Part shown: piece by piece, positions 43,113 through 44,150 of the stretch
How the letters are laid out: every line of letters begins with the position of its first letter
Position numbering within the stretch: position 1 is the first letter of the stretch
Origin: Escherichia coli
GTDB lineage: Bacteria > Pseudomonadota > Gammaproteobacteria > Enterobacterales > Enterobacteriaceae
Direction: 5' to 3' (one strand)
Assembly (NCBI RefSeq): GCF_041248615.1
Contig: NZ_CP158426.1
DNA length: 64,000 bases
Translations under genes and position numbers: made by a program
The notes under the pieces: model-generated
Told to the model about the DNA's origin: nothing
Seen by the model: only the letters and a program-made list of their open reading frames with translations
The model's database searches: none

Positions 43113-43316
43113 ACGTTAACAACGACCGACTCTTTACTGTGCAATATTGTGTCAGGTAGTCCCTCTGCGTTCAATTCCAGGGTCTGCTTTGAGCGAGAAA
43201 GAGGGGACTATCCAGCAATGGAGATCACCCAAAAGAAAAAACCACCTGGCTCCCTCGACAACCTTCATCCGGGCATTGAGCCTCAATCAACATTTTTATA
43301 TCTGTCAGGTTACTTC

Positions 43317-43600
43317 ATTATGAAAACTGATCATCATCGTTGTTTTTGTTGCAATAGTAGAATACGCGTATTTATTCCTCCATCTCTATTAATAACGGCA
43401 ATAAACTGTTCACTTCACTGATATTTAAAATATGTATCCTTTTCAAGCTGTTCAGCGGCGTAAGAAAAAGTATTAATTATGAATTCGACGATTTAACCAT
43501 TTCAGTCTGATTGGTAATCATCTATGATTAATGCTGGTCTATTGATTACGCCAGCATTAACCGCTTAGGGATGTATTCTTCCTGTCCATATAGCCCTCGA
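43317..43600 (+). repeat. Degenerate second copy of the ykgR-ykgM-ykgO locus (ykgR 3' half, last ~30 bp of ykgO, terminator hairpin; ykgM and most of ykgO absent)
   Basis: About 85-90% identity by eye to 24040..24150 and 24850..24990, collinear, with the coding middle missing. Confidence 0.6.
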
Positions 43601-43639
43601 AAAAGAGAGAAAATAAAACTGTGTCCAATATTAATTTAC

Positions 43640-43903
43640 CACTCCAGACCGAAGCATCGGTGGGATTAGCAGAATGATCTGCGTCTGATGTTGAGGCTGG
43701 CTCTTGCCGGCGCAGGCATAACAATTGCCACTCAGGAAACTTTCAGGCCATATATTGAAAGCGGTAAGCTTGTATCGCTGCTTGATGACTTTCTTCCACA
43801 ATTTCCGGGCTTCTATCTGTATTTCCCACAGCGTCGCAATATTGCACCAAAGCTCCGCGCCCTGATTGACCACGTCAAGGAATGGCGGCAGCAATTGGCT
43901 TAA
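43640..43903 (+). pseudogene. C-terminal fragment of a LysR-family regulator (possibly the yagP-type relic)
   Basis: ORF 43688..43903 encodes only the last ~71 aa of a LysR effector domain (...FPGFYLYFPQRR...), with no N-terminal helix-turn-helix upstream. Confidence 0.6.
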
Positions 43904-43961
43904 ATGTCTGCACCTGCACTGCCTGATGTCAGAACAGTATTTTGATGAATTGCCAGGGTTA

Positions 43962-44146
43962 CAATGGCACAAATACGGCACAGGAGGAAAATGTGGTGTA
44001 ATTGAATGTGAGGTAACTACTTCACCTTTCAGCCGGGCATCTCACCGAGCACGCGAGCAAAATCGATGCGATTATAAGTCGCAATGGCACAAATACGGCA
44101 CAAGAGGAGAACGTGGTTTACTTAAATGTGAGGTAACTTATTGATT
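43962..44146. repeat. Two imperfect direct copies of a ~65-bp element (caatggcacaaatacggcaca...aatgtgaggtaact), 120 bp apart, abutting thrW
   Basis: Read from the sequence; copies start near 43962 and 44082; the second ends 4 nt from the tRNA. Confidence 0.65.
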
Positions 44147-44150
44147 TAAA

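What the first reader, a model, noticed from the sequence alone, without database searches (positions are those of the whole stretch)
43149..44150. Decay scar and repeats beside thrW, an integration hotspot that is empty here
Within about 1 kb next to tRNA-Thr lie a LysR C-terminal fragment, a shrunken copy of the ykgR-ykgO locus, and two copies of a ~65-bp repeat. No integrase or phage gene is present, although thrW is a prophage attachment site in K-12 to my recollection. The pattern looks like footprints of repeated insertion and excision or deletion.
Basis: partly seen in the sequence, partly recalled or inferred. Interest (0 to 1): 0.5.

Follow-up and report, generated by a model that had tools for sequence, protein, structure and literature searches.

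The report
Nested prophage-integrase scars beside thrW
The two repeats next to the threonine tRNA gene thrW are leftover tail ends of a phage integrase gene from two separate prophage visits, set among ordinary gene-deletion remnants: a tidy but unsurprising record of phage traffic at a known E. coli hotspot.

Summary
The window is the E. coli paoCD–thrW–proAB region, and thrW is unoccupied. The repeat is 57 nt at 89% identity, spaced 120 nt. It is not a generic intergenic repeat. It is the last 17 codons plus stop of the integrase gene of thrW-integrating lambdoid phages (SfX, HK542, mEp213, HK75).

Window 44023-44196 matches HK542 and SfX at 172/174 positions. It holds Int residues 350-386, the stop codon, a 14-nt linker and the 46-nt att core inside thrW. 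Copy 1 is an older, stop-mutated tail also found in K-12 and O157.

The window equals strain NRZ14408 at all other 63,880 bases and differs only by the 120 nt at 43962-44081. A sister genome, OW967178, has only copy 1 and a different thrW T-stem pair. Together these read as successive stages: integration, illegitimate deletion of the prophage, then repeat-mediated loss.

None of 5,426 complete E. coli genomes shows the two-copy state.

The LysR fragment is the yagP equivalent, left by a 2,051-bp deletion. The ykgR'/ykgO' stretch is a decayed paralogue of the true locus at 24.0-25.0 kb.

This is a non-functional scar of a known kind. Interest is low.

The parts
43324..43392 (+). ykgR' pseudogene fragment: last 22 codons plus stop, with the N-terminal 11 codons missing. 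It is a paralogue of the true ykgR at 24002-24103.
   Evidence: 43324-43440 is 89.8% identical to window 24035-24152; 90.6% to K-12 ykgR. PGAP annotates the identical NRZ14408 sequence as 'YkgR, missing N-terminus'.
43440..43592 (+). ykgO' 3' end (about the last 12 codons) plus its downstream sequence. It is joined directly to the ykgR' downstream sequence. About 677 bp holding ykgM and most of ykgO is absent.
   Evidence: 75% identity to window 24829-24981; 74% to K-12 L004 20411-20261. Junction sequence.
43673..43903 (+). C-terminal 75-76 codons of a second LysR-family gene, equivalent to K-12 yagP. It was left by a 2,051-bp deletion that removed a hypothetical gene, an SDR oxidoreductase gene and the N-terminal three quarters of the LysR gene.
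   Evidence: 74/75 aa match residues 225-299 of the O157 LysR; window 42200-43677 aligns to L005 6089-7586, then 43673-44022 aligns to L005 9638-9986. One search gives the gene content of the missing piece. One search shows a junction with 2-5 nt of microhomology.
43904..43961 (.). Spacer downstream of the LysR fragment. It is contiguous with that fragment in K-12, O157 and the empty-site genomes.
   Evidence: collinear at 95.7-96.8% in K-12 and O157.
43962..44022 (+). Repeat copy 1, the older integrase-tail scar. In frame it reads NGTNTAQEENVV*LNVR*, which is Int codons 370-386 with Tyr382 changed to a stop. It is followed by ACTT, the first 4 nt of the old 12-nt stretch that lay between it and thrW.
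   Evidence: The same sequence is the sole copy abutting thrW in PKF4 and OW967178. It also lies beside ptwF, the CP4-6 attR, in K-12.
44023..44136 (+). The younger integrase remnant: Int residues 350-386 (HLSAGHLTEHASKIDAIISRNGTNTAQEENVVYLNVR) plus the stop codon. It contains repeat copy 2 (44082-44138). The catalytic Tyr348 and everything upstream are gone.
   Evidence: translation against HK542 Int. (residue numbering; 172/174 nt identical to HK542 and to SfX over 44023-44196). (95.6% to SfX, HK542, mEp213, mEp043, ECP1 over the query piece 44023-44170; 94.1% to HK75, HK446, mEpX2).
44137..44150 (.). Phage-type linker, the inner end of the P arm (CTTATTGATTTAAA), between the int stop codon and the att core.
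   Evidence: the linker is identical to that of SfX and differs from the ACTTGATTTAAA stretch of type-1 genomes.
44151..44196 (-). The 46-nt att core, which is the 3' part of thrW. It is identical to the published attP core of SfI, SfII, SfV, SfX and P22. It carries the phage allele of T-stem pair 50-64 (U-A).
   Evidence: sequences. PMC3636060 (core sequence). OW967178 differs at 44163 and 44177.
44151..44226 (-). thrW, an intact tRNA-Thr(CGU) gene.

Best explanation
The region is a non-functional stack of scars beside an intact thrW whose integration target (the att core) is also intact.

The repeats are the 3' end of the integrase gene, plus the inner P arm of attP, of lambdoid phages that integrate into thrW (SfX/HK542 type). 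Such a prophage sits with int reading toward the 3' end of thrW.

An old prophage was deleted down to the last 17 int codons, leaving copy 1. Most E. coli still carry this copy next to thrW, or next to the thrW fragment at the far end of an inserted island.

In this clone a second phage of the same type then integrated into the 46-nt core. That pushed copy 1 to the far junction. It also placed phage sequence next to thrW: the int tail, the linker and the 3' 46 nt of the tRNA, including a U-A T-stem pair.

An illegitimate deletion with 0-1 nt of microhomology then removed the far junction's last 8 linker bases and its core, the whole prophage, and int codons 1-349. That produced the observed order: copy 1, ACTT, int', copy 2, thrW.

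Recombination between the two 57-nt copies then gives the single type-2 copy seen in NRZ14408.

Shown: the homologies, the geometry, the junctions and the three allelic states. Inferred: that these events happened in situ in this lineage, and their order.

The LysR and ykgR'/ykgO' fragments are separate, older deletion remnants.
For: - Identity of the repeat. Window 44023-44196 is 172/174 identical to HK542 and to SfX, and in frame it encodes Int residues 350-386 plus the stop. Copy 1 encodes residues 370-381 followed by a stop.
- Core. Window 44151-44196 equals the published 46-nt attP core (PMC3636060). HK542 annotates attP immediately after int.
- Geometry exists in nature. PSJ-32-1 has xis-int reading into thrW, and a tandem second prophage whose junction reads old int tail, linker, core, P' arm. 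Tandem SfI/SfX integration at thrW is published (PMC3306764).
- Three states in one clone. The window is identical to NRZ14408 at 63,880/63,880 other bases and has 120 extra nt. OW967178 is about 2 SNPs away over 23 kb, estimated from bit scores. It has only copy 1, and all its differences from the window over the 3.5 kb compared fall within 44023-44177, inside the phage-derived segment. These include a compensatory T-stem change at 44163 and 44177.
- Rarity. No place in 5,426 complete genomes spans both copies.
- Not a dispersed repeat. The median is one place per genome.
Against: - No lysogen of this clone is in the collections, so the intermediate is inferred.
- The segment could have been imported by homologous recombination from another strain rather than formed in situ.
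- The exact two-copy junction was found in no other genome or metagenome contig, so it rests on a single assembly.
- The order window -> NRZ14408 is parsimonious but unproven. NRZ14408 could have lost a whole prophage in one step by recombination between the copies.
- The U-A thrW allele is the majority allele in E. coli (4,972 records against 411). On its own it does not prove phage origin.
Confidence: 0.85

Rival explanations
1. A local 120-bp tandem duplication, for example by replication slippage, whose copies later diverged. No phage would be involved.
For: The spacing is exactly 120 nt (40 codons) and both copies are in the same frame.
Against: - Only 57 of the 120 nt are repeated. The 63 nt between the copies have no counterpart before copy 1 or after copy 2.
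- TRF reports no tandem array.
- Each copy matches a separately existing allele: copy 1 matches PKF4 and OW967178, and copy 2 with its flanks matches the phages at 172/174.
- 11% divergence between the copies cannot be reconciled with 0 SNPs to NRZ14408 in 63.9 kb.
Confidence: 0.02
2. The scar was not formed in this lineage. It was imported ready-made by homologous recombination (transduction or conjugation) from a donor strain that carried it.
For: E. coli recombines often. Integrase remnants of other lengths next to thrW exist in other genomes, such as the 204-nt fragments in AVS0753 and RIVM_C036569. All differences from OW967178 are clustered within 155 nt, as a short recombination tract would also be.
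Against: - No donor with this junction exists among 5,426 genomes or in metagenome contigs.
- The right-hand boundary of the differences falls inside the 46-nt att core, as Int-mediated exchange predicts.
- Copy 1 and its left flank are 100% identical to the clone's own OW967178 allele.
Confidence: 0.08
3. The repeated sequence is kept because it does something. It could be Int arm-type binding sites that modulate integration or excision at thrW, a thrW terminator, or a small RNA.
For: - The sequence lies in what is the P arm of attP in the phages.
- It contains a short internal direct repeat, GGCAC-N6-GGCAC (sequence).
- Copy 1 persists in most E. coli.
Against: - There is no Rfam hit other than the tRNA.
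- Predicted folding is no better than shuffled sequence, with z of +0.5 and -0.8.
- Promoter and terminator motifs are not enriched.
- The copy varies more between strains (89-96%) than the adjacent yagP fragment does.
- The copy is readily lost or replaced.
Confidence: 0.05

Closest known systems
int-attP region of thrW-integrating lambdoid phages (Shigella phage SfX; Escherichia phages HK542, mEp213, mEp043, HK75, HK446, mEpX2, ECP1)
   Same: 172/174 nt identical over the last 37 int codons, the stop, the linker and the 46-nt core. The orientation relative to thrW is the same as in lysogens.
   Different: Only 10% of the gene survives. The catalytic Tyr348, xis, the P' arm and the rest of the phage are absent. 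The older copy 1 retains even less and has an internal stop.
K-12 CP4-6 distal junction (ptwF pseudo-tRNA to yagP intergenic region)
   Same: K-12 has the same order: yagP fragment, spacer, one integrase-tail copy, linker, 52-nt thrW 3' fragment. The old scar therefore predates CP4-6 insertion.
   Different: In K-12 the 34-kb CP4-6 separates this junction from thrW, and there is only one copy. K-12 also lacks the MFS, hydrolase, LysR1 and ykgR' block and has a longer yagP fragment (411 nt).
Tandem lysogeny at thrW (SfI + SfX in Shigella flexneri, PMC3306764; E. coli PSJ-32-1 here)
   Same: A second phage integrates at the intact thrW beside the first phage's int-proximal arm. This produces the junction old int tail, linker, core, new P' arm. 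That is the inferred precursor of the scar in this window.
   Different: Those are intact double lysogens. Here both prophages have been deleted down to 57 and 114 nt.
Generic E. coli intergenic repeats (REP/BIME, ERIC/IRU, RSA, box C)
   Same: Short repeated sequence in an intergenic position.
   Different: This repeat is not dispersed, with a median of one place per genome. It has no palindromic structure and no Rfam family. It is homologous to coding sequence.

Membership tests
Prophage scar: 3' remnant of a thrW-specific phage tyrosine integrase gene (SfX/HK542 type) with attL | Nucleotide and in-frame protein homology to the 3' end of int in sequenced phages | tested here: met
   172/174 nt identical; 36/37 aa identical to HK542 Int residues 350-386. 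Copy 1 covers codons 370-386 at 89%.
Prophage scar: 3' remnant of a thrW-specific phage tyrosine integrase gene (SfX/HK542 type) with attL | Lies directly beside the 3' end of the target tRNA, with int reading toward it, as in real lysogens | tested here: met
   Natural lysogen PSJ-32-1. HK542 int-attP order.
Prophage scar: 3' remnant of a thrW-specific phage tyrosine integrase gene (SfX/HK542 type) with attL | att core identical to the phage attP core | tested here: met
   Window 44151-44196 equals the 46-nt core given in PMC3636060.
Functional tyrosine recombinase / integrase gene | Complete catalytic domain including the nucleophilic Tyr (RYAHL motif) | tested here: not met
   The remnant starts at His350. 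Tyr348 and all upstream residues are absent.
Dispersed intergenic repeat families (REP/BIME, ERIC, etc.) | Many copies per genome at unrelated loci; curated RNA or repeat family | tested here: not met
   Median of 1 and maximum of 4 places per genome. Rfam finds only the tRNA.
Tandem repeat / VNTR | Head-to-tail units that are homologous over their whole length | tested here: not met
   TRF finds nothing at minimum score 30. Only 57 of 120 nt are repeated.
CP4-6 cryptic prophage (K-12) | intF and CP4-6 genes between thrW and yagP | tested here: not met
   The yagP fragment lies 247 nt from thrW with no CP4-6 sequence between them.
LysR-type transcriptional regulator | N-terminal HTH domain plus a complete substrate-binding domain | tested here: not met
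   Only residues 225-299 of 299 remain. PGAP marks it as a pseudogene.
YkgR small membrane protein / L36B (YkgO) | Intact ORF with a start codon | tested here: not met
   ykgR' lacks its first 11 codons. Only about 12 codons of ykgO' remain, and ykgM is absent.

The most novel reading that the evidence does not exclude
Three near-identical E. coli genomes (OW967178, this window, NRZ14408) may capture consecutive steps of one cycle of prophage gain and loss at thrW. Step 1 is the pre-integration allele. Step 2 is a nested scar left by an illegitimate deletion. Step 3 is loss of 120 nt by recombination between the two copies. The net outcome is that the flank next to the tRNA and one tRNA T-stem base pair are overwritten by phage sequence, with no prophage left behind. 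If this is general, 'empty' att sites would be continually rewritten by transient lysogeny. The predominance of the U50-A64 thrW allele in E. coli (4,972 records against 411) could then be a phage-driven conversion.
Probability: 0.5. Interest if true: 0.3.

Novelty: new member of a known kind. Interest (0 to 1): 0.15.

Why it matters
The practical value is for annotation and for reconstructing strain history.

- It identifies an unannotated sequence, present beside thrW or ptwF in many of the E. coli genomes examined (K-12 included), as an integrase-gene fossil.
- It shows that a site scored as 'empty' can carry a datable record of past lysogeny. That record includes a phage-derived 3' half of the tRNA gene itself.
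- It introduces no new mechanism. Prophage decay, tandem integration at thrW and replacement of tRNA 3' ends by attP cores are all established.

Tried and rejected
- **Known RNA families:** an Rfam E-value scan of 40000-47000 found only the tRNA, plus a spurious antisense hit.
- **Tandem repeats:** TRF at minimum score 30 found none, so tandem duplication was rejected.
- **Promoters and terminators:** 1 promoter-like and 2 terminator-like sites, no more than in shuffled sequence.
- **RNA folding of the scar, minus strand:** z = +0.53 and -0.84, so no structure signal.
- **Two-copy junction in metagenomes:** an exact 31-mer search returned 0 hits.
- **Old-scar junction in one-genome-per-species contigs:** an exact search returned 0 hits, which is uninformative.
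- **Shared 21-mer:** 5 contigs matched, including Shimwellia pseudoproteus and Escherichia sp. E1V33. This was too sparse to date the old scar.
- **Generic repeat family:** considered and rejected because of the per-genome copy number.
- **Chimeric assembly of type-1 and type-2 alleles:** considered and rejected, because the 63-nt int' stretch occurs in neither single-copy allele.
- **Spacer 43904-43961 as a further diverged int remnant:** I looked for this. By eye there is only weak similarity and no in-frame protein match, so it is left open.

Full report
**Context**

The window is the E. coli chromosome from betA to the lateral-flagella (Flag-2) cluster, in the reverse of K-12 orientation. 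thrW, tRNA-Thr(CGU), lies at 44151-44226 on the minus strand (Rfam 71.8 bits). proA and proB lie to its right.

To its left, in order, are paoCD, an MFS transporter pseudogene, an alpha/beta hydrolase gene, an intact LysR gene (42228-43112), and then the 1-kb stretch in question. This gene order comes from the PGAP annotation of strain NRZ14408. NRZ14408 is identical to the window at every base except one 120-nt indel.

**Checking the observation**

- **Repeat:** The repeat finder gives one family, at 43962-44018 and 44082-44138. It is 57 nt at 89% identity with a spacing of 120 nt.
- **LysR fragment:** 43673-43903 matches residues 225-299 of an intact 299-aa LysR gene of O157:H7 at 74/75. It is collinear with K-12 yagP.
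- **ykgR'/ykgO':** 43324-43440 is 90% identical to the true ykgR 3' part at 24035-24152. 43440-43592 is 75% identical to the ykgO 3' end and downstream at 24829-24981. ykgM and most of ykgO are missing between them.

The repeat is 57 nt rather than about 65.

**What the repeat is**

A blastn search of 43930-44170 against phage genomes hits SfX, HK542, mEp213, mEp043 and ECP1 at 95.6%, and HK75, HK446 and mEpX2 at 94.1%. The hits fall on the 3' end of the integrase gene and the annotated attP ('similar to thrW and ptwF'). In HK542 the order is xis, int, then attP immediately after the int stop codon.

Translated in frame, 44023-44136 reads HLSAGHLTEHASKIDAIISRNGTNTAQEENVVYLNVR*. That is HK542 Int residues 350-386 with one substitution. 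Copy 1 reads NGTNTAQEENVV*LNVR*, which is codons 370-386 with Tyr382 changed to a stop.

Over 44023-44196 the window matches HK542 and SfX at 172/174 positions. The last 46 nt of this segment, 44151-44196, form the 3' part of thrW. They equal the published attP core shared by SfI, SfII, SfV, SfX and P22 (PMC3636060).

The catalytic tyrosine (Tyr348, in RYAHL) lies two codons upstream of the breakpoint and is gone. The 'repeat' is thus two nested fossils of the same integrase tail. Copy 2 comes with its linker and the phage version of the tRNA 3' end.

**Not a generic repeat, tandem array or RNA element**

- The unit occurs at a median of one place per genome, with a maximum of four.
- TRF finds no tandem array.
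- Rfam finds nothing but the tRNA.
- Folding energies do not differ from shuffled sequence.
- Promoter and terminator motifs are at background level.

**Comparative series**

Single-copy, empty-site genomes come in two flavours.

- **Type 1:** PKF4 and OW967178 have copy 1 followed by ACTTGATTTAAA and then thrW.
- **Type 2:** NRZ14408 has the copy-2 sequence followed by TATTGATTTAAA and then thrW.

K-12 has one copy next to ptwF. ptwF is the 52-nt thrW fragment at the far end of CP4-6. O157 has one copy next to a similar partial thrW, at the edge of an island carrying a primase-helicase gene. The old scar was therefore already beside thrW before those islands inserted.

No place in any of 5,426 complete genomes spans both copies. 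The best places cover only 120-148 nt of the record.

The window equals NRZ14408 at 63,880/63,880 other positions. It differs only by having 43962-44081.

OW967178 is about 2 SNPs away over 23 kb, estimated from the bit-score difference. It is 100% identical to the window from 42323 to 44022. All of its differences from the window, over the 3.5 kb compared, lie within 44023-44177: the extra int' and copy-2 segment, six substitutions in the copy, two in the linker, and two inside thrW at 44163 and 44177.

The two thrW changes are a compensatory swap of T-stem pair 50-64. It is G-C in OW967178, PKF4 and RIVM_C036569. It is U-A in the window, NRZ14408, K-12 and the phages. ARAGORN calls tRNA-Thr for both alleles.

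Every difference therefore lies on the int-proximal side of a crossover inside the 46-nt core. That is what Int-mediated integration predicts.

**Junction**

Copy 1 is followed by ACTT. These are the first four bases of the old 12-nt stretch between it and thrW. ACTT abuts CACCTTTCAGCC, the codons for His350 onward. Compared with the old linker (ACTT|GATT) and with phage int (CGCC|CACC in HK542, GGCT|CACC in AVS0753), there is 0-1 nt of microhomology. This is an illegitimate, non-homologous junction.

**The predicted precursor geometry exists**

E. coli PSJ-32-1 carries an HK542-type prophage with xis and int reading into thrW. At that prophage's far end the junction reads P22-type int tail, linker, 46-nt core, HK542-type P' arm (CTGTAGCACC...). 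It is a tandem double lysogen. Tandem SfI/SfX integration at thrW has also been shown experimentally in Shigella (PMC3306764).

**Model**

1. An ancient SfX-type prophage at thrW was deleted down to 17 codons, leaving copy 1.
2. In this clone, starting from an OW967178-like state, a second phage of this type integrated into the core.
3. A non-homologous deletion removed the distal core, the prophage and int codons 1-349. This gave the state seen in the window.
4. Recombination within the first 21 identical bases of the two copies removes 120 nt and gives the NRZ14408 state. Alternatively, NRZ14408 lost the whole prophage directly by the same recombination.

The homology, geometry and allelic states behind steps 1-3 are directly shown. 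That the events occurred in situ, and their order, is inferred.

**The other scars**

Relative to O157:H7, the window lacks 2,051 bp. The missing piece holds a hypothetical gene, an SDR oxidoreductase gene and LysR codons 1-224. The junction has 2-5 nt of microhomology.

K-12 has an independent, larger deletion running from just past paoD into the same LysR gene. It leaves a 411-nt yagP.

About 204 genomes share the window's ykgR'-ykgO'-LysR' arrangement. These are ordinary deletion remnants, and I found no link to phage integration.

**Frequency of the empty state**

In 947 of 5,426 genomes, the LysR gene or fragment, a single integrase tail, thrW and proA are contiguous. The rest carry something at thrW. 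Examples are defence islands with AbiE, a reverse transcriptase or type I restriction-modification genes next to integrase fragments, lambdoid prophages, and CP4-6.

**Verdict**

The feature is a non-functional, nested prophage-integrase scar at a well-known hotspot. The exact two-copy form is so far unique to this genome. It makes a neat three-genome series, but the biology is established. Interest is low.

Noticed in passing
window 44163 and 44177 (inside thrW); L010 1709-1784, L007 20102-20177: thrW exists as two alleles that differ by a compensatory T-stem pair. It is U50-A64 in the window, K-12 and the phage attP cores, and G50-C64 in OW967178, PKF4 and RIVM_C036569. Across complete E. 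coli genomes the G-C allele is in 411 records and the U-A allele in 4,972. The majority allele is the one carried by phage attP cores.
   Followed up: partly
L014 18730-20204 and L015 7429-8900 (E. coli PSJ-32-1): A natural tandem double lysogen at thrW. A prophage with a P22-type integrase (tail ...SQSKNKEGTNDV*) lies directly upstream of an HK542-type prophage. The hybrid junction between them reads int tail, linker, 46-nt core, P' arm.
   Followed up: partly
L006 7434-13814 (RIVM_C036569), L011 26546-29100 (XJ6.1), L002 1-5115 (AVS0753): In close relatives (99.0-99.4% identical flanks for RIVM_C036569 and XJ6.1) the stretch from about window 43555 to thrW is replaced by defence cargo. RIVM_C036569 and XJ6.1 carry an AbiEi/AbiEii pair and a 3.2-kb reverse-transcriptase gene; AVS0753 carries a type I restriction-modification system. 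In RIVM_C036569 and AVS0753 this is followed by an 'ash family' gene and a 204-nt integrase fragment abutting thrW (the XJ6.1 stretch fetched ends before that point). thrW thus behaves as a defence-island hotspot.
   Followed up: no
L020 9826-10365 (Escherichia sp. E1V33): An intact ykgR-like ORF (MKENKIQQISNKLINIVVFVAVVEYAYLFLHFY) lies within about 250 nt of a longer decayed SfX-type integrase remnant. After that come the repeat, the linker and only 19 nt of the thrW 3' end, then unrelated sequence. ARAGORN finds no tRNA there. This hints that a ykgR copy and the thrW att region were neighbours in another Escherichia lineage too.
   Followed up: partly
window 39636-40763 (-): The MFS transporter gene between paoD and the alpha/beta hydrolase gene carries an internal stop, according to the PGAP annotation of the identical NRZ14408 sequence. 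It is intact in O157, PKF4 and XJ6.1.
   Followed up: no
window 52119-52673 (-): prfH and the adjacent rtcB-family RNA ligase gene are reduced to fused fragments of 353 and 207 nt. Both are intact in PKF4 (615 and 1,140 nt). This is another deletion scar in the same window.
   Followed up: no
window 10087-12280: An IS3-family element (transposase at about 10479-11707, minus strand) splits a gene into an HTH-domain fragment and a GyrI-like-domain fragment (coordinates converted to the window).
   Followed up: no
window about 55250-64000: Genes of the lateral-flagella (Flag-2) cluster appear intact here: lafU, motA, a FliA-like sigma factor gene, fliL, fliK, fliS, fliD and lafA. In PKF4 and PSJ-32-1 the region is reduced to lafU plus an flhA fragment.
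   Followed up: no
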